A DNA stretch of 64,000 bases from Antedon mediterranea (GCF_964355755.1 NC_092674.1:18910001-18974000); one strand, 5' to 3'. Counted from the stretch's first letter, positions 12,201-58,689 are shown. Translations and numbers: made by a program. The notes: generated by a model from the letters alone, not told the origin.

Positions 12201-15200
12201 AAAGTAAATTGTCTTTAGAATTAATACTATTGTACAAAGGAATGCACGGCTGGTTTGATCATTAGTACATGTATTTAAAACAAAAATAACTCAATTCAAA
12301 GCAAAAACAACATTAACTGTAATAAAATAATAACTTACCGTCTGTTACAAATTACTGTATTACCCAATGAAATTAAAATACTGCGTACAAAATCCCGATG
12401 TTGCGTACAAAATCCCGTAATTTTATAAACAAAATCCCGCCAATCCTGATGTTGCGTACAAAATCCCGTGTCTACAAACACAATCCTGTCGATCCCGATC
12501 TTGCGTACAAAATCCCGTAATTTTATAAACAAAATCCCACCAATCCCGATGTTGCGTATAAAATCCCGATCTTGCGTACAAAATCCCGTAATTTTATAAA
12601 CAAAATCCCGCCAATTTCGATGTTGCGTACACAATCCCGATGTTGCGTAAAAAATCCCGATGCTGCGTACAAAATCCCGTAATTTTATAAACAAAATCCC
12701 GCCAATCCCGTTGTTGCGTACAAAATCCCGCAGTCTAAAAACACGATCCCGATATTGCGTAAAAAATCCCGCAATTCTTAAAAAAATCCCGTCTATCCCG
12801 ATATTGCGAAAAAAAAATCCCGATTTCGTCCCGGTGGGATCGTCTAATCCCACCGGGATCGGCCGATCCCGGTGGGATTCCACCGCATCCCGATCGGGAT
12901 CCCGATCTCATTTTTTATGGGGTAGTTACATATTCACAAAACAAATTGAATGGATCAGAATACATCATATTTTATAGTGATTTACATATTAATTATTAAA
13001 TAATTTAATCATTATAATATCACAAATGATAGTTTTTTTTATGATAGAACGAAGAACCATATGCACTCCGCAATATATCACAACACACACGGATGACTAC
13101 CATAGTTTCAATACATATAAACTAAAAATTACATCCTAACAGTATGTTTAATTTTTTTTAAATTTAGTGTAAAATATAGGGTTTGAACTTATGATAGATA
13201 AAACCCCACAAAAAGACTGAAACCCTAGACAACAGTACACGTTCTATGGTGTATTCAATTGCTGCTGTTCTTTGAAGTATTTTCCTTAATTTATATCTGA
13301 ACTTACCAATGGCGAGTCCTCATATATGATAACACCTCCTTGCACATTAGGTTGTAGTGTCAAGCTTTGTACAGTTGTGTCTCTAGAAAAAAAATAACAT
13401 TAATTACTCACCTAGGGTATTATGCTGTCTATTACAATAATAATAATAATATAATACACCTAGATGTTTACAGCTTTTTACTCTTTGTAGCCAAACATTG
13501 TCTATGTTTATATTTAGATCAATATTTGCTAATTTTACAAGCCTTTGTTGTGTTCCAATTAACATACACTGAGTTTTATTTAGATTTAGACTAAGCTTGT
13601 TACTTGCTAGCCATGATTTGATTTTGTTTAAATCTTCATTAATTCTTGCAAGTACTTCATTTATTTCAGAAGATGCAAAGTAAAGGGTTGTATCATCTGC
13701 ATACATACTAATCTGTACACTATTTACATACTTTGGTAGACCATTTACATAAAGTATAAATAAGAATGGTCCCAAAATTGATCCTTGGGGGATTCCACAA
13801 TTACTATAGCATTTATCTGATCGAACACCATTTACTTGTGTTAAGTGCGTACAATCACAAAGGTAGTCTTTAAACCAATTTATAATAGAGACATCTATGT
13901 TAAATAATTTAAGCTTGTCTATAAGTATGGTATGGTCTACCGTATCGAAAGCTTTTTTTAGATCAAGCATGACTACATCAATATACTTCCCACAATAAAT
14001 ATCATTTATCCAATCTTCTGTAATATTTAATAATGATACAGTAGAGAAATTAGGACGAAATCCGGATTGGTAAGCATAAATCATATTTTTTGAGTTAATA
14101 AATTGATCAAATACAACCCTCTCGATAATTTTAGAAAGAATCGGAAAAATTGATATGGGTCTGTAATCTCTGGGCATATTTTGGCACATTTTCATCTTTT
14201 CGGAAAAGTACTAGTTGAAAGTGAAGGATTTACCAAATAAGTGAGAGGTCCAACAATTTGATAAATAATATTTAATAATAAATAGCTGGAAGCTCATCTA
14301 AGCCTGTTGCTTTACTTACAGAAAGTGAGTTAAATTGTTTATAAATGCATTCTTGGTTTACAAAACTAAATTTAAGTAGGTCCCTGCTTTGATTAGTAAT
14401 ATCTTCAATAAGTAATCTAGGGAGAGTCTGCTGTTAGTTTGTTATCACTTGTTTTTAGGTTTGATATTTCTGTATTTATACTCTTTGCTGGAACAATAAT
14501 GAACAATATTACATAGCCTATGTAAATACGAGAACGTGATTGGTTGAAACTGCATCACATGACTACCGCTGCGAGGATCGTAAATCGTATATATCCTCGA
14601 GAACGATGATATTGACTGAGTAATTTTCACGTAATTATCGTTTCCCTGTCATTAATCATATACATTCTCGAGTACGATGATATTGACTGTGTAATCTTCG
14701 TGTGGCAACACTCGCGTTTGCCGATAAATAAACAAATGTCATCTACTGGGTCTTGAACTCGCGATGCAATTGTCACTCCATCACAAGACAACGCTTCATG
14801 CGCCGCGCCACGGAACTTGCTTTAAGAAATTAGTCATCTAAACTATTTAAACTCATACATAGTGCCCTCATTTATTATTAGTCCTCCCTAAATGTGATGA
14901 AACACTGTTTGTGATTGCTCAATATTCACGCCAGTAGCCTAGTAACTAGTACGCGCTGAACATCCGGTGATTCGGCTCCTCGAAGAGCTAGAAGACGAAT
15001 TGTTTATTCGGCCTACCTGATTATAATATTATTAATAGGCTTATTGAGGGAAATTCTTCTGTTAATTTAAACGACCTAGGCCTAAGTGAATTTTTTATTG
15101 CCAAGGAATCATTAATTAGTAATTATCTGTATATTATTCTTTGCAAGGTAAGAGGTCTAGGCAGGCTTGTTTACATACAATACAAATACTATAGCCTAGG

Positions 15201-18200
15201 AGGCCTAGCCTAGCTTCACCCAACCTAGCAGACTTGTTCTTGGCTATATAATATAATAGATATCGCCTTTTATATCGGTAAAATATAAGATTTAACATCC
15301 CCTCGGGATGATATTATGTTCTCGGGGAATTATATATATCCCTCAGCTGCCGCTTCGGGATATATATATTCCCTTGAACATAATATCATTCCCTCGGGGA
15401 TGTCAAATCTTATATTTCACCTCTAAGCAGAAAATATCTGTATAATAATACACAGTTCAGTGTACAAATTGGTTTAGGCAGCTTTACAAATTATCTGAAC
15501 AAGGTTTACCTATGAAGTTGTATATACTGTCTAGGTTTATTAAGCAGATGTAAAAACCTATCAATGACTTTATTCTTGCCAACACCTTGGTTTCCAATTA
15601 ACAGTAAATGTTCACCCAAAAGAAAATCTTTCAACATATCTTCCATTATTGAAAGGTGCTGAAATATCAATTCGATAGTGTTACTACAGTACATTTATTC
15701 AATTTAAATACAAAATTATTCTTTCGATTGAAAAAAATCAAACTTACAATGAATAATAAATACAACACATACAAAGACAAAAGTCAAAAACAACTGGTTA
15801 GAACATAAATACATTTATCCAAAAAGGTTTTAACAATAACTTTCAGTTTATAAGCATAATAAATGTATATGTGTGTAATGGCTCAAGTTCTACAATGGCA
15901 TAATTTAATGTAGATGCTTACCTGGGAATTTTCATAAAATAGTGTATCTGGTACCATCATTTGATTGTCAGGTGAGCTCACAGGTATGGTGGTAGTACCA
16001 ATACGTACAATATTATTTGTTACCTCACCTGAAAAATACAGTAACAAATCTAAATGTTTGTATATTAATTTCCTGAAAAAGAGTTTTATAATACTAAATA
16101 AAATACTAAATGCTATTAGAAATCACAAAACGATTATATTGGGATTTATATACATGATTGTTTGCAGATTAAATTATATATTACATATTGCTTGTTTTTG
16201 ACCTAATTTATTTTCACACTATTATTAGATAAAACGGAAAAAAAAATCTTGAATCATCAACATTGGGCAAATTGATTAATTGGTGAATGTGTAGACCTAG
16301 CCTGGCCCTTTCCTTTGATACTCACATGATATAGCAGTTTTCATGTCAATATCAGTAGGCCTTGGATGCATTCCTGCATCCTCCAATGCCTTGTCTAATG
16401 CCTGATGTGCCAGTTGAGGTAAAAATCTGAATTAATGTAAAAGAAATTAAAATGAATTGAAAATTGATAAGGAATATATTCAAATATACAATTCATATAA
16501 AAATTGAAAACTAGAATTGCTATTAAATTCTTTTTCATCACAGAATCACCTTTTTTTTGGTTAGATATTTTTATTAAATATTGGTCATATTAAATGATTT
16601 CCTTACTAAAGGAAGACACACCATTATACAAATTATTTGGGTATTACTGGAAATTTTAGTTGAAATCTAACTATTTTGTAGATTTTTAATTTGATTTTGT
16701 TTTATTATACCTTTTAACCATTTCATGATTTACTTTTAAAATGGTTGTACATAATGAAAAAATATTCATATTCCTGGATTACTCAATCTGGTGTAAAATG
16801 GACATTTATCCGAATAGGTTTATTTTAAGATCAGCAGCCAGGTAAAATGTCTATGCATTTAGAGTTCTGCAATTATTGCTATACAAGGCCAGGTGAGAAA
16901 ATAAAATTCTTAGTTGGTTAAGAACTGTCAATACCTGGAAAGATTAGCTTTATTAACAGCATAATGTAGGCAATCATTTGGATGAGTTGACAGACGCCTT
17001 GCTATCCTAACAAGATTCCTTGTTGATAAAGATGATGACAGTGACTGCAACTAGAGATTAATAGAAAATGTACAGTATTTAGTTTTACGCATTTTTATCT
17101 TATTTTAAATTCTGAATTGTAACCGCATTTTACAACAGTTTTTGTGCAATAATGTGTGTGTATTCTATATATTAATTTTTGTTTATATTATATATACATC
17201 TGTATTTTATCTTACTAATATTTGCCAATCTTCAAGAAAAATTTCTATTGTTATTGTATGATAATGGATAAAAGCATTTCAGTATTCAGTATATGTCATT
17301 GTCATGAAATCTTATTCTGGATATTCATTGAGAACTTCCACTGCATTGTTATTATTCGAAAATTAGACTTAGTATCATTAGTAATTTAACAGGAAATTAA
17401 ATTGGTAAATTAATATCTAATAAAGCTCAAAAGTTGAATAAATATTAAGTACAATCAATTTACATTTTACATAAAATAAACTAGTGCTATAAACCAACAT
17501 ATGCTATAAATTAGTTCCACCCACATTATGGTCACTGCAGAGGAGTAAAGCATAGTGTATTCTATAATAAATTACAGAATGTAGGAGGTATGCTGACTGT
17601 GAGTGTGAGGTGAATTCTTGAGTGAGGAACTGTGATTCTAGTAAACAAACACTTAACTTACTGTAGGATCTGTTGCATTTCTCAGACGATGTGAGAAGTT
17701 AAGCAACTGCTCTAGACTAGCTTCATGAAATCCAGGAACCTACAATATTTACAAAATAAACAATGACAATCATTGAAAGATTTACTTAATTACATCCATG
17801 TTTTGATATGTTGAAAATATGAGAGCAAATAAAAAAGTAGGAGAGCATTATTTATTATAAAATAGGAATTACAAAATAATGTAGCTGCTATAAAACAGAG
17901 AAAGAAGCTTAAACAAAGTAAAGGATCCAAAACACAAGTTGTTGAGTTATATCTTAGTAACAAAGTAAAGGATCCAAAACACAAGTTGTTGAGTTATATC
18001 TTAGTAACAAAGTAAAGGATCCAAAACACAAGTTGTTGAGTTATATCTTAGTAACAAAGTAAAGGATCCAAAACACAAGTTATTGAGTTATATCTTAGTA
18101 ACAAAGTAAAGGATCCAAAACACAAGTTGTTGAGTTATATCTTAGTAACAAAGTAAAGGATCCAAAACACAAGTTGTTGAGTTATACCTTAGTAACAAAG

Positions 18201-21200
18201 TAAAGGATCCAAAACACAAGTTGTTGAGTTATATCTTAGTAACAAAGTAAAGGATCCAAAACACAAGTTGTTGAGTTATATCTTAGTAACAAAGTAAAGG
18301 ATCCAAAACACAAGTTGCTGAGTTATATCTTAGTAACAAAGTAAAGGATCCAAAACACAAGTTGTTGAGTTATACCTTAGTAACAAAGTAAAGGATCCAA
18401 AACACAAGTTGTTGAGTTATATCTTAGTAACAAAGTAAAGGATCCAAAACACAAGTTGTTGAGTTATATCTTAGTAACAAAGTAAAGGATCCAAAACACA
18501 AGTTGTTGAGTTATATCTTAGTAACAAAGTAAAGGATCCAAAACACAAGTTGTTGAGTTATATCTTAGTAACAAAGTAAAGGATCCAAAACACAAGTTGT
18601 TGAGTTATATCTTAGTAACAAAGTAAAGGATCCAAAACACAAGTTGTTGAGCTATACCTTAGTAACAAAGTAAAGGATCCAAAACACAAGTTGTTGAGTT
18701 ATATCTTAGTAACAAAGTAAAGGATCCAAAACACAAGTTGTTGAGTTATATCTTAGTAACAAAGTAAAGGATCCAAAACACAAGTTGCTGAGTTATATCT
18801 TAGTAACAAAGTAAAGGATCCAAAACACAAGTTGTTGAGTTATACCTTAGTAACAAAGTAAAGGATCCAAAACACAAGTTGTTGAGTTATATCTTAGTAA
18901 CAAAGTAAAGGATCCAAAACACAAGTTGTTGAGTTATATCTTAGTAACAAAGTAAAAGATCCAAAACACAAGTTGTTGAGTTATTTCTTCAATAATTGCT
19001 ATCATATCATCTATTTATATTCATTTTATTTTTGCTCCCTAAGCTTTTATCATGAATTGGTACTTAAAATAAAAGGAATTAAAAAGTGAAATTTCACATT
19101 TCATACATTTATTTAAAAAAATGTAGACAACTAAGATTGTATTTTATACAAATTTTCTATTCTATAAAGAATAATAGCAAAAGTATCCAGATATTCAGTG
19201 CCCATCCCGCCAAATGTGCAATTTCTCGATATTGATTTGGATGAAAATAAAAATCAGATAATGCATACATTTACATTTTTGGCTTTACATTTATATATTA
19301 GACCTACTTCAGTTTAGTTAAGGCCTTACTTTACTAAGAAGGTGATTCCTGATATTTGTAAATGTTTAATTTGAGCACGCTTCCCTAGATTTAATATGAT
19401 CAATACGTACTTTGTATAGTACCTAACTTCATTGCATAGGATAGTACACAGGAGGTATTATTAGTCTATAATTTATTCTTCTAGGTACAAATTCTAGAAG
19501 ATGTGACTGGGTCTAGGCCTAATATAAAAGCCACATGTCAGGTTTCGTTTTGTTTTGTTTCGTAAGATTTATTCAACCAAAAAACATATTATTTAACATA
19601 AATATTAAACATTTTAACATAACATTTCTACTTTTTTTTTTTGGCTGGGATCTGGTATAGAAGTATTAAACTTGTCTCAATCAGACCCCTAACAAAACAA
19701 ATATTAGAAATAGTTTAATAAGGAAAAAGGTATACGCCTTATTTAGACTTCAAATTAAATAACCTGAGAAGGTTATACAATATTTAGATTTGGTTAATCT
19801 AACAAGTGGTACAAGTATCTTAGGCCCTGTTCAGACCCATGGCGTTAGACCGTTTTAGCGTACAACGTTACTATCAAGGTCACGTTACAAACCGCAGAGA
19901 AAAAAACGAGGTGTTCAGACCCATAGCGTACGATTATCGTTACAACGGAAGTACGTCATCCAGGTTGTTTCTAGTTGCATATTCACGTGCTCTTACTGTG
20001 ATATAAAGATATACTTTTATATTTAAGAAATTGACCTTTGTATCGGAATTCAGATAGGTTCACAAAGTTGACCCAGAAAGTCCGAAGGAGAGTTTGTCCA
20101 GATGTTTTAATGACCATTTAGTTTATAATAGAATCCCTAAAGAAAACACTTAGCTTAACTTTGCGACCGTTCCCATCGTAAAACAATTAGATTCTGACAG
20201 TTTTAAGCAGAGATTTGACAGGGCCAATTCATCATTGTAACCTCCCCAGATAAGATCAATCACTCCCACTTAAACACCCCTGGATCAACTTAGGACCAAT
20301 CGTTACCCTCACAGATTACGTAGTGACATATGCAAATGAACTGAGCCAATATACTCCCAAGTTTCAGAAGGGCCCAGACACATCTTACAACCACGCCACG
20401 GAACACACACCTTACAACCACTTCTCCAGAAGCAGACCTACACACACCACACCTCACTGACAGCATCATTGAATGTCCGTTCCTTATGTATACTTATAGT
20501 TGTATATTGTACTGAAGTATTATACAGAATAAATAATATATGTGTTACGACAGTCAAGCGAGTAAGAGTCCTTCATTAGTACCTCAACAACCCAAACATT
20601 ATATTACATGGTGGAAGACCCAAATTTCATAAGGAACGGAGTGAGAAAACAAGAAATAAACACTTAACAAGACACGAAGACGAAGACGAAGACAAAAATA
20701 ACCATATTTGTTTGAAAGGAGAGAAATTTACTTTGACTCAAAAGACAAGCTGAAATTATATTTGAATGAGATCGAGACAAGCAGAAATTTGATCAAATTA
20801 TTACCATTGGATGAAGACAAAAAAGATAATCGAGGAAGACACAAAAGACAAGCTGAAATTATATTTGAATGAAATCGAGACAAGCAGAAATTTTATAAAA
20901 TTATAACCATTGGATAAAGACAAAGAAGATAATCGAGGAAGACCCAAGAAGAATCAAAACAGAAGCAAGCGGACAAGAACTGTTTCGTTTAGAGACTTTC
21001 AACTTCACGCCGTTTTTTTTCGATCGTTTTTTTTACATTTACCTTTTTTGAACATTGATGAACACCTTTCGCATTTTTTTAATTCGTTGTTTGAAAATTT
21101 GAACATTGATGAGCACCTTTAACATTTCTTTAATTCGTTGTTTGAACATTTAGACATTTTTGAACACTTTTTGCATTCCTTTAATTCATTTTTAATTGGA

Positions 21201-24200
21201 TCCGAAGCATTTGGGGTAAGTCAAAACCATTTTGATTTTGATTTGTAACCTTGATTGAAAAAGTGAGAGTTTACATATACACTAAATTGTTTTTGATATT
21301 TGATTAATAATTAATATTATAAAGTATGGTCGACGTTGTTGATAACGAAGTAATTTTAAATGAGCCCGTCAATCCTCACCCCGTGCCCCACCTAAGACAA
21401 ACCGATTTCCTTCCCAAAAGATATGACGGTTCCATAACCGATCACGACCAATGTAGTGCACATTACTTATCGTTTACCGACTACCTTGAGGCCCACACGT
21501 TAGAAAACCCTGTAAACAATGCCCAATTAATTAATGTAATAAGTATTTTTAAACGTAGCCTTCAGGGCCAAGCTAGACTCTGGATTGAGGGAAAGCAGTT
21601 CGATTCACTAGAATCCTTAAAAACCCAATTCATCAACAGGTTTAGTAAAAACAAATCAATCTATGCGCACATAAGAGAATACGATTCAATTACATACACC
21701 ACTGGCGACAACGCCGAAAAGCACTTAACCAAAATCAAACAAGCCGCAGACAGAATTGGATACGCTGACCAGCAGATAAAGAATAAATTTATTTCGACCC
21801 TTCCACCAAAATGTAGAGCAGCTGTAGCCATGTCCACCCCAATCGATTCCACTATTGAAAATATTGTAAATAGCACACAAAATTACCTTGACCTTTCCGT
21901 AGATGATGCCACACGGGAAGTTTCATTCAATATCAATAAGGAAACAGATAGGCCTAATAGTCTCGAATCGCTCCAACATGAGATAAATTCTCTCAAGTTA
22001 GACATGGCCACAACAAAACGATCCCTTAATGATGATACTCGACGCTCACGTTCCCCCACCCGAAATTATATCCCAAGACGAAACCGAAGCCCAAGCCCAT
22101 ACAAACCCCGATTCCAGACCCCACCGACCCCAAGATATAGACAACCTCCCCCAACCTGTTATTACTGCGGGAAACCAGGCCACATAGCAAGGCACTGCCG
22201 ACAACAAAACCGCTCTTACGGAAACTATCCCCCGCCATACCCATACCAACAGTCAAACAATTACTACCCTAGCCACCAGCAGGATTTTTAAAAAGGGGAC
22301 TAGATGCCGCCTATAATCTGGCCCCCCATACTAAATACGACAATTTTAAGGCAAAATACTTAGGAAATTCAGATAATATTGATTTGTTACTTAACGACAG
22401 AAATTACGTTAAAGGAAATTTACCAGATGGTAGAAATGTTTTAACTTTATTTGACAGTGGTTCAACTAGAACTATAATCTCACAATCGTACGTTAATTCC
22501 TCACTTTATTTATCGCGTTTAAAGCCAGTTAAAGTGAACACAACCAAATTTCGATTAGGTAACGGTGACTTCTTATATGCCAACCACTTAGTGCAATTCG
22601 AATTATTTATCCAAGGACACAAATTTAAAATTTCAGCATTAATCGTTAAAAATTTGACAGGTATTGACCTGATACTTGGAACCGAAACATTGTCTGAACT
22701 CGACGGTACTTTAAATTTTAAGGAAAACACATTTCGCATTAGACCAAAGATTTTTAGCTTTCGTCCAGTACACAAGATTTTTCTTAAACCCGGTGATACT
22801 AAAACAGTTAAATTAAAAGGAAGGGTTCCCGCCTTTGTACGCAATTCCGATGTTGTTCTACATGCAACCACCCATATTTCAAAACTTTGTCCATCAGATA
22901 TGTTAGTAAAATTACACAGAGGAGAAACCAACATTGATATCACTAACAACACAAACAGAAACGTATCTCTAAATACACATCAACCTATCGCGAGCCTTCA
23001 CTTAACCAACCTTGTAACAGTTACTAACGACCTACCAATTGATAGAATAAAGTTGACCAATGACAACGCAAATAAGTACCCACATTTAGAACGTACAGAC
23101 CCATTGCTATCTTTAACCGAGGAAGAAATAATTAGAAAACAAGTTGATTTAACAGACAGCGTTTTAACACATAGAGAAAAAGAAGATTTGTATAAAACCT
23201 TACAACAAAACAGAAACGCATTTTCACTTTATGGTGAACTATCTAGCTGCCCAAACTTCAAAGCCGACATACACCTCTCTGACGATGAACCATTTTTTAT
23301 TCGCCCATACTTCGCGACAGACAAAGACAAAAATGTTATTGAGGCCGAATTGAACAAATTAGTCAAACTAGGAATCTTAGCAGTAGGACACCAATCGTAT
23401 ACTTCCCCTGTCCTTCTTGTTTCAAAGAAAAATTCAAAAGATAAAAGAGTTGTCACAGACTTCCGCTATCTAAATTCCAGGATAAAACGTATTAATCACC
23501 CATTCCCATTATTAGCCGAAACTTTGAAAACAATAGGTAACGCTAATGCACAGATTCTTAGCGTAATTGATTTGAAATCAGCGTTCCACTGTGTACCATT
23601 AGCCGAACATGCCCAACAATATACAGGTATAGCTTCATATCATGGTGGAAAACATTATTATTATAAGAGATTAGCACAAGGATTAAACGTTTCACCAGGT
23701 ATATTTCAAGCAAAGATTGACGAAATTTTAAATGAAATCCCAAATTCTAGAGAATTCTGTATCGCCCATCATGATGATATCATTTTATTTAGCCAAGACA
23801 AATTTGCTCATAAGCAGCACCTTGTTTCCGTTTTACAAGCCCTACAATTAAATGGTTTTAGAATTTGCCCAAAGAAATGTAAGTTATTCAAGAATAAAGT
23901 GCAATATATGGGACACACCATCCTGATTAATTCTTCAGGACACGCATGTATCACACCATTAGGCGACAGGTGTGCAGCTATCCGAAATTTGCCAGTCCCA
24001 CGAACCCATAAAGAAACTAAACGATTTATTGGTGCAGTAAATTATGTATCCCATTTTTTCCCTCAAATACAATCAATTTTACGTCCGTTACACACACTCG
24101 CAAGCAAACGCCGAAAATTTGTTTGGTCTACTGACCACCAGAAAGCATTTGACGAAATTAAACAATTAATGGTTAAACCACCTACTCTTCAAATGCCTAG

Positions 24201-27200
24201 AAAAGAAGGTAGATTTACGCTATATAGCGACACTTCAAGAACCGCAACAGGTTCATATTTAACACAAACAGTAAACGATAAAGAACACATAATAGGTTAT
24301 TATTCCAAAATCTTACCACAAGCCTGTCAACGATATAGCGTCACAGAATTAGAGTTATTTGGACTTTACATTAACGTTTCAGCATTTCGACACTTACTAA
24401 AGGGTTGCGAATTTGATGCATTCGTAGACCACTCAGCAATTGTACAAATTTGGAATTCAAAAGATCAGCCATGTACACCCCGTTTACAGAAACTAATATT
24501 ACGATTGTCCGGATACATTTTCCAAATTGGTTATAAGAAAGGAACTGAATTAGTTTTAGCAGATTTCCTCTCCCGAGCCCCTCGTGATGACGATTCCGAA
24601 ATTGATCAAGTTGTACCCATTGCATTTAATATTACAGAGACTGCATCTCTTAACCCGATTACAAACACATCTACTAGCAGACCAGTAACAAGGTCATACG
24701 CCAAGAAAATGGGAATAAATATACCTGACCTACATAAACCCAAACCCAAACAAACGCCTGTCATTAATCAAAACCCAGTGACAACAAACACGCGACCTAC
24801 ACCTCAACCTTCCACTACACCACAGATAATCACGAGACAACAAACAAACGCACATCGATCACCGCCTATCATAACGCCACCTATCGCAACACCACCCCCA
24901 ATACGTAATGTAAACATTCGACAACCTCCAGAGGAACGACTAGTAGACAAAAATAAACAAAGCAAAGACACTACACATCGAAATGTACCAGTTGAATTGT
25001 ATACATCGCCCAAACCACTAGTACCAAACATAACTGAATTTAAGTCAGCACACATCCCAAAACAACAAGACTTAGATAGATTAATGGATGTTATTCAAAG
25101 AAAGATAATTAGAGATTATAACCTCCCAGTAGATGTTAAACAATTACGTGTTGAACAAGAAACTTCACCATTTTTTAAGCCAGTTTACGATTATTTAGTT
25201 CATGATATCCTTCCAGCTGATAAGAAAGCAGCTCGTGCAGTTCAGAATAAGTCAGAGCAGTACATATTGTGCAACGGTTTACTATTCCGTTTATTTTTCC
25301 AAGATAAAGGTGGAGAATTTGTATTGCAATTAGCTGTTCCTGAAAACTTAGCAGAGACTGTTATTTCTCAGTATCACGACAATTTGTTAAGTAGCCACCA
25401 AGGTACGATGCGTACTTACCTTACTATTAGGAAATTATTTTACATGCCTCTTATGTTCGAGAAAGTCAACAATTATACCCAAGCGTGTCTTAGATGTCAA
25501 CAATTTCGTCCCAAAACCGATAAATTACGTCCTTTACACGATCGAGTACCAGCAACTTACCGTCCCTTTCATACACTCAGTCTAGATTTTAAGAGTATGC
25601 CAACATCGCCTTCAGGTTTTAAACATATTATGGTAGTATGTGATGAGATAACTAGATTTTTGATTTGTGTACCTTTGAAATCCATTGATGCCGAAACAAT
25701 TTGTGAAGCACTAATTCAAAAGGTCATCAGTATTTTTGGACCCCCATCTCGTCTTATTTCAGATGCAGCAACCTCCCTTACAGGAAAATTATTAACACTA
25801 TTATGTAACACCCTTAATATTGATAGGAAAATCATCAGCGTCCACAATCACGGTAGTTTACAAGTTGAACGTCATATCCGCACCGTATCGGACCTGTTAA
25901 AAGTGAACCTTAACCAATTCGGAACAGATTGGGTTAGATTTGTATCAACAACATGTTATGCCTATAACTCGTTTTCATCCCCACATCTAGGAAACCACTC
26001 CCCTTACGAATTAGTTTTTGGCCGCCAACCTCCAAGTTTGACCTCATTAGCATTTAACCCTATTTCAGGATTGTCTCATTCCTATGAAGAATACTTTGAA
26101 CATCTCAAGAAGAAATTTCAAAACATTTCACAGACAATGCTACAATTACAGCGAACACAACAAAACGTCCAAAACTCAAAAATTTCCCAACGCTTAGAAA
26201 AATGTCCAATTTACTCAGTAGGACAACTCGTATATTTATACAAGCCAACATCATCATCACTAACGGCAAATTCAAAGAAAATCGCCGCAGAATGGGTCGG
26301 ACCATTAGTGATCCATGAAGTACTAGACAGAACACACTACATCCTAGCGACGATTAAAGGAGAAATACTTCGCGACGTATTCAATTATAACAGACTGAAA
26401 CCCTGTTTTATGAGAACACCCAAAGAACGCAAAAATTTTACACATCTCCAAAAACTTAAACAATTGTTGAATGAACCCACCGATGATAATAACGATAAAA
26501 TCCAAAACACCATTAATGTAGTAAATGACGAAACCAATGTTGAATTTGTAGACGAACATGATAGGACACCCACCCAATTGCAATCAGATACCCTTACACA
26601 TCCAACTAAAGTAGAACCCCTTAACTTTCAACCTTACATTGACTGTGTAGAGAATAACATGGGATTAGCAGCCCCATTCCAAATGAAAGAAGAACAAATC
26701 AAGGAACAAACTAATCTAATTATGACAGCACCTAATGATTCAATTATGACATTAAACCGAGGTAGATTTAAAGCAGGACATTTCCAAGTTTTAGTTTCGT
26801 ATTCTAAACCGACTTCAGCCAAACGCAACACTGATGAAACAAAACACGAATCTAATGATCGCCAATTTTGGTGGAATATTGACAGATATAACGATACAGA
26901 TAAATTGATTAAAGAGATCATTAATGATAAACAGATACCGATAAGTGGATCGCCAAAACGATTCATAAAACGTTTGTATAATGCAACGAATTACTGATTT
27001 AATTTTTTTGCAAGATTATTTTTAAATTACGACATTTGCTAAATTAATGATAGCATAGTCTACGTATTTTTGATGAGATTTGTTAAGTAATGATGTGATT
27101 TCAGTTAAAAGAGAATTGAATTTATGATTAAGTATTGATTTTGTAACGAGTTTGATAATGATTAATTTTGAATTTTGAATGATCGATATATTGAGATATT

Positions 27201-30200
27201 GAAAAGAACGACAATCATTTTGTAACAAATATTTTGTTTAACCTTTGAGTCGTTAATCTCAAGCATTAATTAATTGATATACAATAACAGGAGATTTTCT
27301 TAGTACTTTTAATTGTAATTTTTTTAACATTGAGTACAAAAGTCGAATTTGCCGACCGATTGAAATCGTAATTACCTGTAAATATAAATGCTTAAATCGA
27401 TAAAGTTGTGACGATAACGATATATTGTGGATAAGTTTGTGTCAACGGGACACACACATTTGTTTCTTTAAAGTTTTAAGTGATTGAGTTTGATATTTTG
27501 ATTCTAGGCTAATCAGCCACAGTTTCTTGAGTTTTATGTTTCGATTTGATTGATTTATATTTGAAGGCCATTAGAACGCGATAAGTTGTCGCGCTATTTG
27601 ATATATATTCATTGTACATATTCTTTAAGTTCTTTAAATTTGACCAATTGACGTTTGATTAACGCTCGAGGGAGGAGTAGAGCCAATTACGAGCTATATA
27701 TATAAACAACCGGATGGGCAGACTATAAATAAGTCGCACGAGCGTATCAAATATACAGTATTTACTGTCGAATTATAAGTTAATTTACTTTTGTGAGATT
27801 GTTATAATAGTTGAACTTAAAATTTTATTGTTTGAGTTTTATATTGTTTATTTAGTTTAATATTGTTTATTTTAAATACATTTTAATTTTATTTATCGTA
27901 ATTTTAGTCAATTCCAAATTTCCCCCTAAAATGGAATCCGAAAAGCTTGACCTTACACAGTTATGCTTAAAACACAAAATTCAAATGACGCCCCTGTCCA
28001 CAGAATGTGCCCTTATAAAGAAGATAATCCTTTACCAAAGCGAACAAAACGTAATTCTCCATATTACCAAAACGATGCCATTTACTTTAGATTCCTTGAA
28101 AAGAGTTTTATTATTCCTTTGCGACATCCGTCCAGCAGACCAACTGACAAACCTCAAATTAAATACCCTTTTACACATTGGCAGTTATTTATGTTGTTTC
28201 GACAAAATGTCCTCCCCCATTATAGATTACATTTGGAAGCATAAGAGTGAACCAGCCCTACTTGACTTTTCCACAATCGACCTTTCCATTAATCTAGACG
28301 GCATCGCCACTTGTATACCAAACACACATGAATTTCACAGACAACATATTTATTCTATGACCCTCCTGCTCTTAGCAATTACAAAAGACATCAAAGCCCC
28401 ACAATGCACAGCATTTTTTTCAAGAGTCCGACAACAAACAGGCATCATACCCCAAGACGAATTAAAACCTAGCGAACACTCACCATTTGGATATGTTGTA
28501 ACTAAATATAAGAAAAAACTATATTCGCACATTCGTAACATGCAGTACCTGGAAAATAAATACCAAGATACCCCCTGCCAAATTTGTCAATGTAACCCCG
28601 AAATTAAAAACTTTCATACTGACTGTACAATCAACAAATGCTGCGGAACATTTTTTCACAAAAATTGCCAACAAATATCCCTCAACAAGAAATACCAATG
28701 CTTGAATTGCGGTATGGTATATTTGAATGAGATCCCTTACACAACTACCTACATGTTGGACATACCGTGGAGTGCATTCCGTTTTTATCGATTATTATAT
28801 AAACCCACCGATTGATTTCAATTTATCCTTTATAAAATTTTTTTTTCTATTTCAAATAATTAACGGGAGTCGACTTCTTGACCGATGTTTTTTAGGGAAA
28901 CCCAACCGTTGTGATGTTTATATTTCGGTAATCCGAGTGTAGCATGCCTCCAAAGCAACGGACCCACAATTATGTCGATCTTGAAGAACACTTTTGTTTT
29001 TTTTATATACATTTTTTGTTTTAAATTTTATATAAATTCCGGAATTTTTATACCAAATTCAATTTTAATTTCATTTTTTAAAGAGAGAGAAGAGAGAGAG
29101 TGAAAGTGATAAGGTTACACTTCAGAGTCAATGGTTTTGGCTAACTCAATTTTTGCTTATATGTATAATAATGTTTTTTTCTTTTATATAACTTTAATTT
29201 TGCATGCCACTATTATAACCATTTTTATATGTTAAATAGATTAGAAAAAAAAAAGGGAAACAGAGGGATGTGATATAAAGATATACTTTTATATTTAAGA
29301 AATTGACCTTTGTATCGGAATTCAGATAGGTTCACAAAGTTGACCCAGAAAGTCCGAAGGAGAGTTTGTCCAGATGTTTTAATGACCATTTAGTTTATAA
29401 TAGAATCCCTAAAGAAAACACTTAGCTTAACTTTGCGACCGTTCCCATCGTAAAACAATTAGATTCTGACAGTTTTAAGCAGAGATTTGACAGGGCCAAT
29501 TCATCATTGTAACCTCCCCAGATAAGATCAATCACTCCCACTTAAACACCCCTGGATCAACTTAGGACCAATCGTTACCCTCACAGATTACGTAGTGACA
29601 TATGCAAATGAACTGAGCCAATATACTCCCAAGTTTCAGAAGGGCCCAGACACATCTTACAACCACGCCACGGAACACACACCTTACAACCACTTCTCCA
29701 GAAGCAGACCTACACACACCACACCTCACTGACAGCATCATTGAATGTCCGTTCCTTATGTATACTTATAGTTGTATATTGTACTGAAGTATTATACAGA
29801 ATAAATAATATATGTGTTACGACAGTCAAGCGAGTAAGAGTCCTTCATTAGTACCTCAACAACCCAAACATTATATTACATTACCCACGTGTTTTCATCA
29901 TTATTTCCACTGTATATAGGCCTAGATCTCAGCCCTACAATTATGACAAAATTTGCCGTAAATAAAACATACCTCAGCATTTATTTAAGAAAAAAATATA
30001 GTAAAGCCAAATTTCTGTTTCTATTGTTTTTATTTTGTAGTAAAAAACATTTTCCCCAGGCTCTTGTGTTACGAAAATAAAGCAGGCCTCGTAATGATGA
30101 AGAAAACAATGATTGTGATTAGTCTATCCAGTCCAGTCAAAGATATATATTCTTTAGTTCAGTCGGTTGAAAATAACCCTTAACTTGCTAATAAAAGGGA

Positions 30201-33200
30201 CACAGCTCCCCTTGTTTGTTTACTGATTTTTTAGGAGTTAGGGGGTTTTCAGCATTAAACTTGTCCAGTCTAGTCTGCCTTGATGAATGAGTGACTTGAT
30301 GTCCCACGCTAGTTTTTAGCTTGAATGAAATGCGTGAATGGCTCTAGGCCTAGCTAGGCCTAAAAGCGGATGTGATCGTAGTCCCTATGTTTAAATACAA
30401 GGTGCATGTATTTATGTCATTTGTTAGAAAATATAATGGTAATCAGTTGATAATAGTTTGTAGCCTTTGTAACAGTTGTATTTGTAGTGTAGTTAGGCCT
30501 TATTTATTCTGGCCTTTTTGTTATTGAAATCCATCTCACACATTGACGATACAAGATGTCAGCCTAGGTCAAACCTTGTTTCGCGTCATAACAGGAAACG
30601 TTCTGATTGGATACAACGTTGACTTACAGTAGCGTCGTACGCTAAAACGGTACTATCAACCGTTTTCCACTACAACGCTACAACCGTTGTACGACGCGTT
30701 GTACGCTAATCCCCAACTGTTCAGACACACATTCTTTTAGCGTCGTACGCTAAAACGGTCTAACGCCATGGGTCTGAACAGGGCCTTACGTAGATTTCTA
30801 AAATTATATTTGTTTATAACAGTAGATTTAGAAAACAATTCAAGAATAGGTCTAGGTAGTGAGCCCTTTATGAATTTAAACATAAAAATAGAGATTTGAA
30901 TGTTATGGATATCAGTAATTTTAAGAATATTTGATTTCTTAAACAATGGTTCAGAATGAGAATCAAATGGAGCTAAATGCATAATTTTGATTACACATTT
31001 TTGCAACTTTAATAGTTTATCAAGATGAGAGTAGTAGTCAGCTGCCCAAATAAGGTTACAGTATTGTAAATGAGGGAGTACAAGTGTGTTATAAGTTGTA
31101 TTAAAATATTGTAAGGGAAAAAATGTTTAAGCTTATTTATTACACCAATACTCTTGGAAATCTTATTTGCTATAATGTTGATGACCTGTCCAGTTTAGAT
31201 GTTCATTTATCAAAACACCCAGGAATAATAATTCACTTTTTTGAGTGATTTTAACACCATTTAGTAAAATATTATGATTGTTATAGAATGTTATTCTTTT
31301 TTTATGAGAATGAAAGACAATACAATTTGTTTTTGTTAAGTTAATCAGCAATTTGTTTGCAATAAACCAAGTGCTAATTTTTTGTAATTCATTATTAAAT
31401 ACATTAAATAAGGTATCTATATTATCATGTTGGAAAAAAACTGTTGTGTCATCTGCAAATGAGATCACACGTAAATTGTCAGTTACTTGAGATAGGTCAT
31501 TTACGTCAATTAAAAATAACAAGGGGCCCAAAACAGAACCCTGTGGCACTCCACATGTAACCGGACTTGCAGATGACTTACAATTATTGATTTGTACAAA
31601 TTGTTTGCGGTCATTAAGATAATTCCTGAACCATTCAAGTGCAATACCTCTAATACCATAATATGAAAGTTTATCTAGTAATATTGAATGATTTACTACA
31701 TCAAACGCTTTAGATAGGTCGAGAAATGTACTTAACAAAAGTTTATTGTTTTCGAATGCTTAATTTATAGAACTTACTATTCTAGAATAGCATGACAAGT
31801 TGAGTGATTTGACCTAAATCCATATTGTCTATGAGTTAACAAATTATATTTATTAAGGTAATTATACAGTCTAGAATCCATCATTTTTTCAATAATTTTT
31901 GAAATTACAGGAAGAATGGAAATAGGTCTATAATTAGTGATAGATTCAGGGTTTCCCTCTTAATGTTGGCTTAAGACTTCTTCTTCTCACTAACAACTAT
32001 TCTGGCTATTTATTTTAAAAGGACTCCAGTTTAGCCAGTCTAAGCGGAAAGTATGCTTATGGGAGTTTGGCAAAACATTTTAGCATTTTATGACTAATCA
32101 AAATTGTACAGTCAAAAACGCCTGCTTACGAAATGCACGTATTGCGGTATTGTTTGCACAAGGAGGTTTCACTACACAAAAACATTTATTTTTTAAAAAA
32201 TGAAATGATTGTCACTTACTATTCCATGAAGGACAGTCATTTCTTCTTTGAATGACAGTGGTTTAACTTGATGGAATAAAAACATAGTAAGAATCTCAGA
32301 TGATAACCATTGCTGGCCACTGCTACCCCCAATAGACGGAGGTTCTGCTAAACCAATGATTCGGAACGAATGATGAATTGGAAGAATACCACTGCAAATA
32401 AAAATAAAGCCTGTTGATATAAAAGTATACTTGTTTTGTTTATGAGCAGCTCTACACTAAAACAATGAAATGGACCGCAATTATAATCTTTGGTAAGACA
32501 GCATACCTCACCAAAGAAACATACCGCTCTTTACAACCATGAGAAAAGCAAGCAATTTTTATTATATTATTGTTCAAATGTGTTAACATTTATATACACA
32601 TAAATATTAAATAGATGTTGCTTCAACATTTATAACAATGCTTAAGATTTAAATCAGTATGGAATGAAATAGAGTACATTACAAAAAAAATTAAAATATA
32701 TGAATGAATATTACATATCTAAAATGTAAAAAAGTATATTTATATTAAAACATCATTTTTACAACATATTAAATGATACAATATCAAAAAAAAAATCCAT
32801 GAAAAAGATAATTTAAAATGTTCAAGCGCTGGCATCTAAAATAGTAAGATTATACAATAATTTATTATTTTTGAATGTTAAATTACCATTGCTTTAATTC
32901 AGTGTCTGTTAAATCATGTTTCTGCTTAAGTTCTTCGTAACGATCATGGCCAATGAGACGTGTACCATCAAAGAGGGTCACTTCACGATCATGTACCAAA
33001 CTAAAAGATAAAAGTAAAGTACCAATCATTATATATAAACTAGAAATGTTTCTAGCAATAATAGAACAATTATATTACAGTAATTATACATACTATCAGT
33101 AACCTGCAGGGGCGGACGCAGGGGGTTGCCCCGGTTGCCCGGGCAACACCCTTAATTTCATGCTAAGTATTTTTTTCTGTCACTAAATTAAAATTTAGAT

Positions 33201-36200: not shown

Positions 36201-39200
36201 CATTCTTTGCTGTAGAAAATCCCTTGAGGTCATATCCTGAATAACAATAATAATAATATAATTCTTGTTTTTTCAGTCAAAAATTTATAGAATAAATTAT
36301 AGCCAAACTTTTCTTATCAAACAATCATCTACAGGATATTGCTTGAAAAATTCACATCATTTTAAACATTAAACAACAATTGTATGTGATTGATATAAAA
36401 CTTTAAAACTATATGCATTGAATAACCCTTTACATGCTTATTTGTATCTCCTAATCTTGAGAACTGACCTGGTACAACATGACAAGTTCAAGTTGATAGC
36501 CTAGCATACTTGCAAAGCGTTTTACAAGCAAACTTTTGCCACATCCCTATAGAAGAGAAAGTATTTTAATTCAACATTTTAACAGGTAATACAATTGACC
36601 TATTAATATTCAAAATAGTTTTTATTTGTCCACTTATTTCTATTTTTTTCTATTTGTGTTGAGCACTTCTACTTTTGCTTTTTTTTAAATATTGTAAAAT
36701 TGTAAAATTTAAAAATAAAAATTAAATTACACACCTATGAATCTGGCAAAATATTGGGATAGTAAAAATTAAGTTTTTTTCATAATATTAAATTTGACTG
36801 TTAAATTGGCAGACTGAATTTAGAAACAAAACCTGATAATTAACAATTTATATTAACATATTGATTTTCTCAATCAAATCCAAACTTTAATTACTTTTGT
36901 GTTTATACCCATCACAGCTTTTGTTATAGTTATCTGTATTGAAAAAATAAATGAAATGAAATGAACTACTAACCTTTGGTCCAATAAGACAAAAGTCTTT
37001 GACACTATGTGAAAGCATCATATCAGCTAAAACATGTTCATGCGATGGTACAGATATATAGTCCATGCTATCAGGTGAAGATGGTGATTGGTTACCTCTT
37101 GCCATGTTAACATTAAACTTTGCTCCTCTGCTTTGGATAGTGACATCTGCATTATCTTCATTTGTCATGTATTGTATATTCGATATACTGCATGGAGTTA
37201 AATTTCCATATTTATCCTCAAGCAATTCAAATTTCTGAAAAAAACAAACAAAACACTCAATCAAATGAAAGAGTTTTAATGAGAATCCAAGATGTTCTAA
37301 AGCTGAAGACAAATCATACTAGGCAACATTGAAGCAAGACTACCGTAAACCTCAAAAAGAAGCCCATGGGCTTAAACCTCGAAAAGAAGCCCATCTCGAA
37401 AAGAAGCCCCCCTCTACAGTTTACAAAAGTGCTCTCGAAAAGAAGCCCATCTTGAAATGAAGCCCCTTGGGCTTCTTTTCAAGATAGTATGGGCTCCTTT
37501 TCGAGAGCACGTTTATTAACTGAACGTCAAAGGAACAGAAATAAACAATACAAATACGTGATTAAGAGTTACTGTAGTAGAATAATTAAATGCCAGATAC
37601 TTGTGATGCAGACTGATGATAATAATTAATATGTATGATTATTTTACAGTTTATTGTCGTCCAAATGGTGCTTTGATCGCATCTTGTATCTTTTACTTGT
37701 CTGCTTCGTTGGCAAATATGTAAAATCGGCAGGGAATTTCCACACCTCCACCAAGTACCCATTTTCCTTCTGGGGCCGTTCGTTCCATTCCAGTTATCTT
37801 GGCTTTAAAGCTGCACTACTGTCCTATCTTCCATCAACGGAGCTATCTGAGCCAAACATTCAGGAACATGTCGAACATCTGCACCATTCAACGAACATAC
37901 CTTTATTGCATTTCTGGCTATACTTTTCTTGTTTTCAGGTTCCAGTTTACATATCATTTCTTTGTTTATTTTGTAATTGTACTGAAAAACATGGTGTCCT
38001 TTAATTCTAGATGAAACAATTGCCACTTTGTGGATAGGACTTGGTGTAGCCATTTTCGTTTACTGTATTATTTATTTTTATATTATGCACCAGCTATAAA
38101 GCAAAAGTATAAGACCCCAGTAAAAAATGTCTGGGCCTAGACGATACGCGTTATGCACAGCGCCTGCACTGCGTATTTGTTGTCAAACGTAACAGTAAAC
38201 AACACGTTGTGTGTGTATTTGCTATTTTTCTTTGCTTTTGCAAAATGGTAAAGACGAGGAAAGTGTATACTCGAGACTATAAGCTTAATGTTTAGCAGTG
38301 GCATGGCACTAATGGCAATTGTGTCACAAAGACTGCAAAAGAATTTAGTATTGATCGTAAGCTGGTGCGAGAGTAGAAAAAGAAAAAGGACGCAATTGCT
38401 GCAATACATTCAAAGAACTGTTCTTCGTTGGCGTGCGAGGAAGAAAGACACCATATGAGACACTTAAGCAAAAGCTTCTTCAAGAGTTCAAAGAAAAGCG
38501 GAATAATGGTATTGAAGTGAAACGATGGTGGATAGAGTCTAGAGATAAGCAAATTGCAGTAGAAGAGGGAGCAGTTGGCTTTAAAACCTCAAATGGATGG
38601 TTTATGAATTTCAAGAAGAGGAATAAACTAAGCCATCAAAGGAAAACGCACCAAGCACAAAAACCACCGACAGCTTTGGGTCCAGCCATTACTTTCTTCC
38701 ACCAAGCCGTCCGAAGACAACGTTTAATGCGAGACTTTGCAGATAGTGAAATAGTTAACATGGATCAAACACCACTGCCCTTTATTATGTCTGATGAAAG
38801 AACGTATGACGTAGAAGGAAAGAAAGAGATATGGGTGGCAAGTGGCTCATCTGGTCTCGAGAAACGACAGTGTACGGTTCAGTTGACTATATTTGCAGAT
38901 GGAATCCCTAGGGTACGACCGATGGTCAAATTTAGAGGAATGGGATTAAGAATTTCACAAAAAGAAAAGTTCAGTTAAAATACCGGTATTATAGTGAAAA
39001 CGGATTTTTAATAATAATTATAACTGTCACTAGCAATCCAATAAAATTTAGACTATAATAAATGCTTAAAAATGTACTTCCATTTTCAGAGTCAATGGGA
39101 TAAGAGAGTCAGGGTGGAATTTCAACCTAAAGCATGGTGTGACGAAGGCATTATGAAGATTTGGATAGATGAAGAGTGGGAAAACCGATTTACCAATCCT

Positions 39201-57800: not shown

Positions 57801-58689
57801 GAGAATCTACAATATCAAATGGCTAGAATAATACTAAAAGCCCTGAGAAATGTTGCCAAAGAAGCATTGTATGGTGATTTGGGATGGCAAAGTATTATTT
57901 CCCTACAAAATGATTACAGAGTTCAATATTTTAACAGATTAAAGAATATGGAAGATTGTAGGTGGTCTCGATTACTTTTCAAGGCAATTTTATCTGTTCA
58001 AGAAAATATGACATGGCATTGGTTATCCAATGTTAAAAAGATATTTTAAATAAAACAAATTTTATAGACAAATTTAATCAAGAACCATCTACTAACTGGA
58101 TAAAGCAATTTAGGAAAAATAATAAACAGGTTGATCATAACGAGTGGTTTTCAAAGGCCCAATGCAAAACAACGTTAACGGAATATACTACTGTATGTAT
58201 AAAGGAACTCCAAACCTTGAACAATATTTATTAGATAAAACTAATTTTAAGAGTATTAATTTAAAATTTAAAACAAGATCAAACTCTCTAGATCTAGAGG
58301 GTCATAGACAATCCTGGTCAAGTCATAACATAGGATTATGTAAGATGTGTAGTACTAACGAAAAAGAAAGAGTAAACCATTTTTTATTTAAATGTCCTTC
58401 ATTAAACTCTGTTAGAAATGATGTATACTTGGATCTTAAGAACAACCTCATAGACAATAATTTAAGTATGTACTGGGATAATTTTAATTGTGGATCTCAA
58501 GAATTAAAACACCACTTTATGCTAGACAATTTATTCACTGAAAATGAAACATTAGGAGAAATCTTTGATTTTGATTGTAAAAAATATTTAATGAAAGCAT
58601 GGGTTACTAGATCTACAATTTTATCAACATTGCCTCTCTCAACTAATTGATTAATATAGCAAACAAGCTACAGATATCTCTATGAGGAT
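54840..58689 (+). mobile_element. Decayed LINE, RTEX-like (ORF1 zinc knuckles, APE, RT, C-terminal CCHC)
   Basis: CYFCGEENHQRKDC; YNNIRG..VVET..GGIG; FIDFKKAFDTVWRDGL, GVKQGC, WADD, YKYLG; CKMC..HFLFKC; several stops and frameshifts. Confidence 0.85.

What the first reader, a model, noticed from the sequence alone, without database searches (positions are those of the whole stretch)
27931..28815. Gypsy accessory ORF3 in the env slot: BTB/Skp1-like N-terminus plus RING-like finger, a candidate TE-encoded ubiquitin-ligase hijacker
Seen: intact 294-aa sense ORF with no signal peptide or TM helix. C-terminus (28576..28710) CQIC-x17-CCGTFFHKNC-x10-CLNC has RING-like ligand spacing with a non-canonical fourth ligand. 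N-terminus ECALIKKII..PFTLDSLKRVLLFLC..LNTLLHIGSYLCC..IIDYI recalls the Skp1/BTB helices (SxTIKxML..LKKVIxWC..LILAANYL). Established: BTB/Skp1 folds bind cullins, RINGs bind E2s, and viruses use both to degrade restriction factors. Inference: an undescribed anti-silencing or anti-restriction gene carried by an active animal LTR element.
Basis: partly seen in the sequence, partly recalled or inferred. Interest (0 to 1): 0.85.

Follow-up and report, generated by a model that had tools for sequence, protein, structure and literature searches.

The report
Gypsy element's degenerate RING accessory gene
A very young Gypsy jumping gene carries, where retroviruses keep env, an intact extra gene with no known relatives whose product ends in a worn RING-type zinc finger; it likely serves as an optional protein-binding tool against host control rather than the cullin-hijacking ubiquitin ligase first proposed.

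Summary
The 294-codon ORF is real. It sits between pol and the 3' LTR of a very young Gypsy element (identical 612-bp LTRs, TTAC target duplication, intact gag and pol). Its closest named pol relatives come from echinoderms, a limpet and a ribbon worm. Sister copies show an excess of silent changes (pN/pS about 0.3-0.45, partial list), but some carry a stop, frameshifts or a deletion of the ORF, so it looks selected yet optional. A same-clade element has a GDSL/SGNH esterase-like ORF in this slot, so the cargo varies. The C-terminal finger is weakly RING-H2-like (13 of 3000 Cys/His-fixed shuffles reach its score). It lacks the fourth-ligand His and the Trp, Pro and Arg that RINGs use with E2 enzymes. 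The BTB/Skp1 idea got no support from Pfam or from purpose-built BTB and Skp1 profiles; the folds were too poor to decide. No homologue was found. Best reading: an optional RING-derived adaptor or decoy (pseudo-RING). Non-env ORF3s and ubiquitin-related motifs in Gypsy elements are already in print, and this scan noted RING and zinc-finger ORF3s on other DNA before.

The parts
19997..20608 (+). 5' LTR, 612 bp, TG...CA
   Evidence: identical to the 3' LTR over 612 bp
29269..29880 (+). 3' LTR, 612 bp; AATAAA at 29800
19993..19996 (.). left target-site duplication TTAC
   Evidence: same 4 bases at 29881-29884
29881..29884 (.). right target-site duplication TTAC
20609..20626 (+). primer-binding site (begins TGG directly after the LTR; tRNA not assigned)
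   Evidence: sequence
21216..21221 (+). candidate splice donor GTAAGT in the 5' leader (a second candidate at 20562)
   Evidence: pattern scan; use not shown
21326..22291 (+). gag with CCHC knuckle; ends at a candidate -1 frameshift site (22282-22288)
22273..26997 (+). pol (protease, RT, RNase H, integrase), open for 1574 codons
   Evidence: relatives, tree
27644..27760 (+). candidate internal Pol II promoter (CCAAT at 27644 and 27683; TATA-like boxes at 27695-27699 and 27724)
   Evidence: pattern scan; inference only
27733..27930 (+). ATG-free, T-rich leader holding the spacer's only GTRAG donor (27793) and a TTTTAG acceptor (27902-27907)
   Evidence: 2.5% of 10000 shuffles are ATG-free; window chosen after looking
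27931..28815 (+). ORF3, 294 aa, orphan accessory gene; start in strong context (A at -3, G at +4)
27931..28563 (+). ORF3 residues 1-211: predicted mainly helical, fold unassigned; BTB/Skp1 not supported
   Evidence: (pLDDT about 45-59 here)
28576..28710 (+). ORF3 residues 216-260: degenerate RING-H2-like finger; site I ligands C216, C219, H243, C246 present; site II has C238, C257, C260 and Thr240 in place of His; spare Cys at 232 and 237
29243..29268 (+). polypurine tract
   Evidence: sequence

Best explanation
ORF3 is an intact extra gene in the post-pol slot of a very young Gypsy element, and its product likely acts as an optional RING-derived adaptor or decoy (a pseudo-RING) rather than as a working ubiquitin ligase. 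Shown: an intact ORF inside a freshly inserted element; an excess of silent changes among sister copies; loss or decay in some sisters; a different cargo (SGNH esterase-like) in the same slot of a same-clade element; a weak RING-H2 signature without His4 and without the Trp, Pro and Arg used with E2 enzymes. Inferred: the gene descends from a captured cellular or viral RING-H2 gene. It is likely made from a spliced subgenomic RNA (donor 21216 or 20562 to acceptor 27907) or from an internal TATA promoter near 27700. The finger would still bind zinc (site I complete; site II perhaps rescued by C232 or C237) and bind a host RING ligase or other host protein, as the non-catalytic partners of RING heterodimers do (BARD1, BMI1; recalled). 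The helical N-terminal 210 residues would bind a second partner, jamming or redirecting a host factor that limits the element. Being diffusible, it would act in trans, which would explain copies that drop it.
For: ORF length beyond chance. Base make-up of the ORF matches gag and pol (A/C-rich), unlike the T-rich spacer. Among 41 listed single-base differences in sister contigs: 22 nonsynonymous, 18 synonymous, 1 stop; pN/pS 0.34-0.44, p 0.0008-0.01 (one search listed 40 of 86 places, one more came). In the one long gap-free sister piece, 17 of its 20 differences were listed: 9 N, 8 S, p 0.017-0.057. None of the 41 alters a putative zinc ligand. zf-RING_2 is the only Pfam family listed for the finger (E 0.32). 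The Pirh2 RING (2ecm) aligns with the same H-x2-C-x10-C-x2-C spacing (E 0.36). A profile of 110 viral RING-H2 domains gives 10.8 bits: 0 of 3000 full shuffles and 13 of 3000 Cys/His-fixed shuffles reach it. The E2-face residues are S250, L258 and G261, against Trp in 84 of 110 and Arg in 101 of 110 references. L001 (pol 51% identical, same 17-row subclade, SH-aLRT 90) carries a GDSL/SGNH-like ORF after pol (E 1.3e-5, below Pfam's cut-off).
Against: No partner, target, expression or zinc binding is shown. All RING scores are far below family cut-offs (11.7 vs 27.3 bits). Single-sequence AlphaFold did not fold the finger (pLDDT 30-37). In organism B one high-depth sister piece carries a stop at codon 77, another has frameshifts, and one contig skips 27883-28754, which also fits a gene in decay. 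The pN/pS tally pools contigs, is a partial list chosen by the tool for support, and may partly record selection before capture or in an ancestor. The reference RINGs were fetched with a motif that forces His4 and Pro, so those two contrasts are by design. The cargo-slot argument rests on 1 informative locus of 10 (L002 ends 211 bp after pol; the other 8 are more distant or short).
Confidence: 0.36

Rival explanations
1. CERV-like self-regulator: the zinc finger binds the element's own RNA, LTR or chromatin and promotes export or expression of the unspliced genomic RNA, with no link to ubiquitin.
For: Precedent: CERV of Cer1 is a soluble Cys-rich protein from a spliced mRNA, needed for genomic-RNA export (PMC10309623, abstract and passages). 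ORF3 is soluble and basic (pI 8.6). Candidate splice signals exist.
Against: CERV is required, while ORF3 is lost or broken in some sisters and replaced by an esterase-like ORF in a same-clade element. The finger scores as RING, and no PHD or RNA-binding family is listed. No sequence relation to CERV was tested.
Confidence: 0.22
2. Active but atypical RING E3 ligase: C232 or C237 supplies the missing ligand (a C4HC3 finger of the FANCL or listerin kind; recalled), and the helical N-terminal region is the substrate-binding part. It would ubiquitylate a host restriction or silencing factor without a cullin.
For: RING-H2 signature with the conserved Ile before C2 (I218; 98 of 110 references) and the FH motif. 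The layout of N-terminal body plus C-terminal RING in a 250-300-aa protein is common in giant-virus RING proteins fetched by motif. Ubiquitination-related motifs are reported in planarian Burro Gypsy elements (PMC6431247, passages).
Against: Trp, Pro and Arg of the E2 face are all missing. The giant-virus proteins match only at the finger and were selected by that motif.
Confidence: 0.2
3. Passenger: a captured RING gene fragment that was once selected (in the host or in an ancestral element) and is now decaying; this copy is intact only because it is young.
For: Stop, frameshifts and a near-whole deletion in sister contigs. Loss of several RING hallmarks. Bdelloid ORF3s showed no significant departure from neutrality within genomes (PMC5408684 Discussion).
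Against: Silent-change excess between copies from different organism labels. Two of the listed deletions outside the badly decayed pieces keep the frame (3 nt at 28062 and 28791). Base make-up has come to match gag and pol, which suggests long residence.
Confidence: 0.14
4. One reading: a BTB/Skp1 N-terminus docks on a cullin and the RING recruits E2, giving a one-chain hijacker of cullin-RING ligases.
For: Predicted helices at 24-34, 53-65, 77-87 and 94-103 fall where BTB helices would (low confidence). A forced global alignment to 45 BTBs is slightly above full shuffles (20 of 300 reach it).
Against: No BTB or Skp1 family in Pfam scans of the whole protein or of three N-terminal pieces. BTB profile 0.9 bits, 674 of 3000 shuffles as good. 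Skp1 profile -0.7 bits, 674 of 3000. hhalign probability 0.25% or less, whereas Skp1 vs BTB gives 95.5%. With the hydrophobic pattern kept, 106 of 300 shuffles equal the forced score. The model puts a helix (38-47) where BTB has a strand (BTB topology recalled).
Confidence: 0.08

Closest known systems
Non-env ORF3s of bdelloid rotifer LTR retrotransposons: GDSL/SGNH esterase, DEDDy exonuclease (Rodriguez et al. 2017, PMC5408684; passages and Discussion read)
   Same: Soluble captured gene in the post-pol slot, gained and lost between lineages. A clade-mate of this element (L001) carries a GDSL/SGNH-like ORF there.
   Different: This ORF3 has no enzyme motif and ends in a RING-like finger. The words RING, zinc and ubiquitin do not occur in that paper's main text. 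The host is another, probably marine, animal.
Burro/GYPSM1 giant Gypsy elements of planarians (Arkhipova and Yushenova 2019, PMC6431247; passages read)
   Same: Animal Gypsy elements with motifs tied to ubiquitination and apoptosis (AIR1 RING-type label, MATH-TRAF, BIR, SUMO-like), proposed to meddle with host systems.
   Different: There the motifs lie in a 5000-aa polyprotein or an upstream ORF of a 30-kb env-bearing element. Here it is one small stand-alone ORF after pol in a 9.9-kb element without env.
CERV of C. elegans Cer1 (Sun et al. 2023, PMC10309623; abstract and passages read)
   Same: Lineage-restricted, soluble, Cys-rich accessory protein of an animal LTR retrotransposon, from a spliced mRNA.
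   Different: CERV has a C4 loop, a G-protein-like domain and ring-shaped oligomers, and is required for RNA export. It has no RING finger; no homology was tested.
RING-H2 E3 ligases (Pfam zf-RING_2; Pirh2, PDB 2ecm; giant-virus C-terminal RING-H2 proteins)
   Same: C-x-I-C ... C-G-x-x-F-H-x2-C-x10-C-x2-C spacing; seven of eight ligand positions.
   Different: Thr in place of His4; no Trp, Pro or Arg on the E2 face; score far below the family cut-off.
Env-carrying errantiviruses (Chary and Hayashi 2026, PMC13524379; abstract, section 5 part 1 and section 7 read)
   Same: Third ORF after pol in an invertebrate Ty3/gypsy element.
   Different: ORF3 here has no transmembrane segment or fusion-glycoprotein match; it is not an F-type or gB-type Env.

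Membership tests
Ty3/Gypsy LTR retrotransposon | LTRs, TSD, PBS, PPT, gag, and pol in the order PR-RT-RH-INT | tested here: met
Errantivirus Env | signal peptide, TM anchor, fusion-glycoprotein homology | tested here: not met
   highest 19-residue hydropathy 1.05; 294 aa; no Pfam match; signal peptide judged by eye
RING-H2 (C3H2C3) | eight ligands with His at positions 4 and 5 | tested here: not met
   position 4 is Thr240; the other seven are present
RING-H2 (C3H2C3) | profile match above the family cut-off | tested here: not met
   11.7 bits vs 27.3; above shuffle controls all the same (13 of 3000)
RING E3 ligase | E2-binding face: Ile before C2, Trp at C6+4, Pro after C7, Arg or Lys after C8 (roles recalled) | tested here: not met
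   I218 present; S250, L258, G261 instead
RING E3 ligase | cross-brace two-zinc fold | tested here: inconclusive
   single-sequence models have pLDDT 30-37 over the finger
RING E3 ligase | E2-dependent ubiquitin transfer | not testable with these tools
   needs a bench assay
C4HC3 RING (RINGv, FANCL or listerin kind) or PHD | an upstream Cys as ligand 3, Cys4-x4-His5 | tested here: inconclusive
   C232-x5-C238-x4-H243 would fit (spacing recalled); no such Pfam family listed; viral proteins fetched with this spacing were ordinary RING-H2s
BTB/POZ | sequence-profile match over about 100 residues | tested here: not met
   profile built from 45 chlamydial BTBs, which detects Skp1 proteins at 3-24 bits
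Skp1 | POZ profile match plus C-terminal F-box-binding helices | tested here: not met
   profile of 13 giant-virus Skp1-like proteins: -0.7 bits, 674 of 3000 shuffles as good; small profile
BTB/POZ | POZ fold (three-strand sheet plus five helices) | tested here: inconclusive
   model pLDDT 45; fold searches meaningless at that quality, and residues 1-75 were barely tested
BTB/POZ | cullin binding | not testable with these tools
   needs a pull-down
Non-env ORF3 cargo of animal LTR retrotransposons (PMC5408684 kind) | soluble ORF between pol and 3' LTR, variable between lineages | tested here: met

The most novel reading that the evidence does not exclude
ORF3 is a transposon-encoded manipulator of the host ubiquitin system: a highly diverged POZ-like or other adaptor domain fused to an atypical RING that removes or jams a germ-line silencing factor. 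It would be a Vif- or ICP0-like counter-defence gene in an env-less animal retrotransposon, swapped in and out of a cargo slot that sister lineages fill with an esterase.
Probability: 0.2. Interest if true: 0.8.

Novelty: new variant of a known kind. Interest (0 to 1): 0.45.

Why it matters
Few animal retrotransposon genes are known to counter host silencing, and those in print are mostly untested. A compact, intact, selected ORF with a RING-derived finger in a freshly inserted element is an easy protein to express and test for E2, ligase or partner binding. The variable cargo slot in this marine-invertebrate Gypsy clade (RING-like here, esterase-like in L001) adds to the picture of LTR elements sampling host-interaction genes. 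Interest is held down because extra ORF3s are a known kind, the striking BTB-plus-RING architecture did not survive testing, and no function is shown.

Tried and rejected
Homologue searches for ORF3 found nothing usable: word-based search, 282 candidates, none scored (lengths 161-515 only); phmmer over 1.84 billion representatives, one hit, a repetitive Cys/Thr-rich 2683-aa protein matching 31 residues, judged spurious; metagenome and viral contig scans, 52 and 6 pattern matches, none confirmed; NCBIfam none, PHROGs two at E 0.12. PDB sequence hits for the N-terminus were SspA/GST at E 0.02-0.25, not pursued. AlphaFold without alignment gave pLDDT 45 and 37. Foldseek on PDB and BFVD had no match at E 0.001 or better; a Solumvirus RING protein ranked second in BFVD at E 0.73 and is not counted. 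VIA-align best Z 6.3, generic helical bundles. The ESM Atlas gave no answer. Pol scans of viral and prokaryote contigs confirmed nothing. No whole genome is held, so copy number and the share of copies with ORF3 could not be counted. Summed contig depth falls about 5- to 10-fold over 27650-28800 in three runs; the tool states that this is no copy number, so it is not used as evidence. No RNA holder was listed (one run guessed RNA), so expression is open. Rfam found nothing over 19900-30000. The bacterial promoter scan is not relevant to this host. No complex prediction was run: there was no alignment for ORF3 and no named partner. Paper searches pairing RING with Gypsy/LTR ORF3 or accessory ORFs returned 0 papers; two searches listed papers, none by title or abstract start about a retrotransposon-encoded RING or BTB protein. 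Repbase, subscription journals and supplements were not seen, so absence from print is not established. PMC6338049 (first of four parts), PMC13547354 and PMC6238403 (passages) gave background only; the clade could not be matched to a named MolGy or other clade.

Full report
The observation. ORF 27931-28815 translates to 294 residues without a break. Its stop-to-stop length of 319 codons compares with a maximum of 175 in 2000 shuffles of the pol-to-LTR region and 210 in 2000 shuffles of the ORF itself. The highest 19-residue hydropathy is 1.05, so it has no transmembrane helix and is not an Env.

The element. The LTRs at 19997-20608 and 29269-29880 are identical over 612 bp and flanked by TTAC on both sides. 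A PBS follows the 5' LTR and a polypurine tract precedes the 3' LTR. gag carries a CCHC knuckle, and pol is open for 1574 codons with PR, RT, RNase H and integrase. The insertion is therefore very recent. The integrase half of pol found 55 proteins; the named close ones are from Diadema, Holothuria, Patella and Lineus (49-62% identity). A quick RT-RNase H tree of 44 rows (the careful search did not finish) puts the window in a 32-row clade (SH-aLRT 96) with the Holothuria and Patella elements. The host is probably a marine invertebrate; no genome is held.

Is ORF3 selected? Fifteen runs under four organism labels and one metagenome hold part of the stretch; seven were laid. ORF3 is covered in runs of organisms A, B and, patchily, C. 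Of 41 listed single-base differences (40 of 86 places, plus one), 22 are nonsynonymous, 18 synonymous and 1 makes a stop: pN/pS 0.34-0.44, p 0.0008-0.01. The one long gap-free sister piece gives 9 N and 8 S among 17 of its 20 differences (p 0.017-0.057). No listed change hits a putative zinc ligand. Against this, organism B also has a high-depth piece with a stop at codon 77, a piece with 49 differences and frameshifts, and a contig that skips 27883-28754. The gene looks selected but optional. Its A/C-rich make-up matches gag and pol, not the T-rich spacer.

The slot. Of 10 loci found with a pol alignment in metagenomes, only L001 is both a close relative and long enough past pol. It lies in the same 17-row subclade (SH-aLRT 90) and carries a 197-codon GDSL/SGNH esterase-like ORF there (E 1.3e-5, below Pfam's cut-off), unrelated to ORF3. 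This matches the interchangeable non-env ORF3s described in bdelloid rotifers (PMC5408684, passages and Discussion).

Expression (inferred). A strong start context, a 198-nt ATG-free leader (2.5% of shuffles), an acceptor at 27902-27907, donors at 20562, 21216 and 27793, and CCAAT and TATA-like boxes at 27644-27731 allow either a spliced subgenomic RNA or an internal promoter. No RNA data decide this.

The finger. Pfam lists only zf-RING_2 (E 0.32, 11.7 bits, cut-off 27.3). The Pirh2 RING aligns with the same spacing from His to the last Cys (E 0.36). I built a profile from 110 distinct RING-H2 domains taken from 123 viral loci. The finger scores 10.8 bits; 0 of 3000 full shuffles and 13 of 3000 shuffles with Cys and His held in place reach this. 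So the residues between the ligands are RING-like too. Site I (C216, C219, H243, C246) is complete. Site II has C238, C257, C260 and Thr240 where His should be; C232 or C237 might stand in, which is untested. Viral proteins fetched with the same upstream-Cys spacing are plain RING-H2s that keep His4, so that Cys need not be a ligand. On the E2 face, I218 is kept, but S250, L258 and G261 replace the Trp (84 of 110 references), the Pro (forced by my motif) and the Arg (101 of 110) (roles of these residues recalled). This argues against an ordinary active ligase.

The N-terminus. No BTB or Skp1 family appears in Pfam scans. Because Pfam's filters hide weak matches, I built directed profiles. One used 45 BTB domains from Chlamydiota genomes: ORF3 residues 1-112 score 0.9 bits, 674 of 3000 shuffles do as well, and 15 left-out BTBs score 39-111. 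The other used 13 Skp1-like proteins from 14 viral loci: -0.7 bits, 674 of 3000. The BTB profile does see the Skp1 proteins (3-24 bits), and the two profiles match each other at 95.5% probability, while ORF3 gets 0.25% or less. A forced global alignment is mildly above full shuffles (20 of 300) but not above shuffles that keep the hydrophobic pattern (106 of 300). The resemblance is thus that of amphipathic helices. A very diverged POZ fold is not excluded, since the references are not animal proteins and the structure models were unusable (pLDDT 45 and 37).

Homologues. None was found in any protein or contig collection searched.

Mechanism. I favour an optional RING-derived adaptor or decoy that binds a host ligase or other host factor and acts in trans (0.36). 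Rivals are a CERV-like regulator of the element's RNA (0.22; PMC10309623, abstract and passages), an atypical active E3 (0.20), a decaying passenger (0.14) and the BTB-plus-RING cullin hijacker (0.08). All functional steps are inference.

Novelty. Non-env ORF3s are known (PMC5408684), and ubiquitination-related motifs are reported in planarian Burro Gypsy elements (PMC6431247, passages). Three searches pairing RING with LTR ORF3 or accessory ORFs returned no paper, but Repbase, subscription journals and supplements were not seen. Unchecked notes of this scan report a double-RING cassette in a flatworm element and a zinc-finger ORF3 in a sea-urchin Gypsy; none shares sequence with this ORF or its integrase. 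Verdict: a real orphan accessory gene, a new variant of a known kind, interest 0.45.

Noticed in passing
window 19823-30785: The Gypsy element sits inside a non-autonomous DNA transposon of about 1.07 kb with 49-bp inverted ends (I8) flanked by TTA on both sides, which looks like a PIF/Harbinger-type MITE (family signature recalled).
   Followed up: partly
L001 5217-5810: GDSL/SGNH esterase-like ORF after pol in a same-clade Gypsy element, preceded by a short tandem-repeat spacer.
   Followed up: partly
window 28826-28863: A 38-bp stretch just after ORF3 also occurs with the same unrelated flanks in contigs of two runs (X5, X11), suggesting a small cis-element shared with another family.
   Followed up: no
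window 27438-27454 and 27577-27593: Two short GC-containing hairpins in the T-rich spacer between pol and ORF3; contigs of several runs diverge from the window around 27550-27640.
   Followed up: no
window 20735-20940 and 21047-21199: Tandem repeats in the element's 5' leader: 2 x 103 bp and 3 x 51 bp.
   Followed up: no
window 17771-19104 and 47089-48199: Homogeneous minisatellite arrays with 47-bp and 39-bp units; the second gives several overlapping open frames.
   Followed up: no
window 13404-14210, 31163-31759, 55128-58650, 58910-62029, 38361-38978: Fragments of non-LTR retrotransposon RT and endonuclease ORFs and a Tc5-type transposase DNA-binding domain.
   Followed up: no
window 8640-12364: Nested long inverted repeats (230, 100 and 82 bp arms, 95-98% complementary) around a 2.7-kb core, possibly a foldback-type element.
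   Followed up: no
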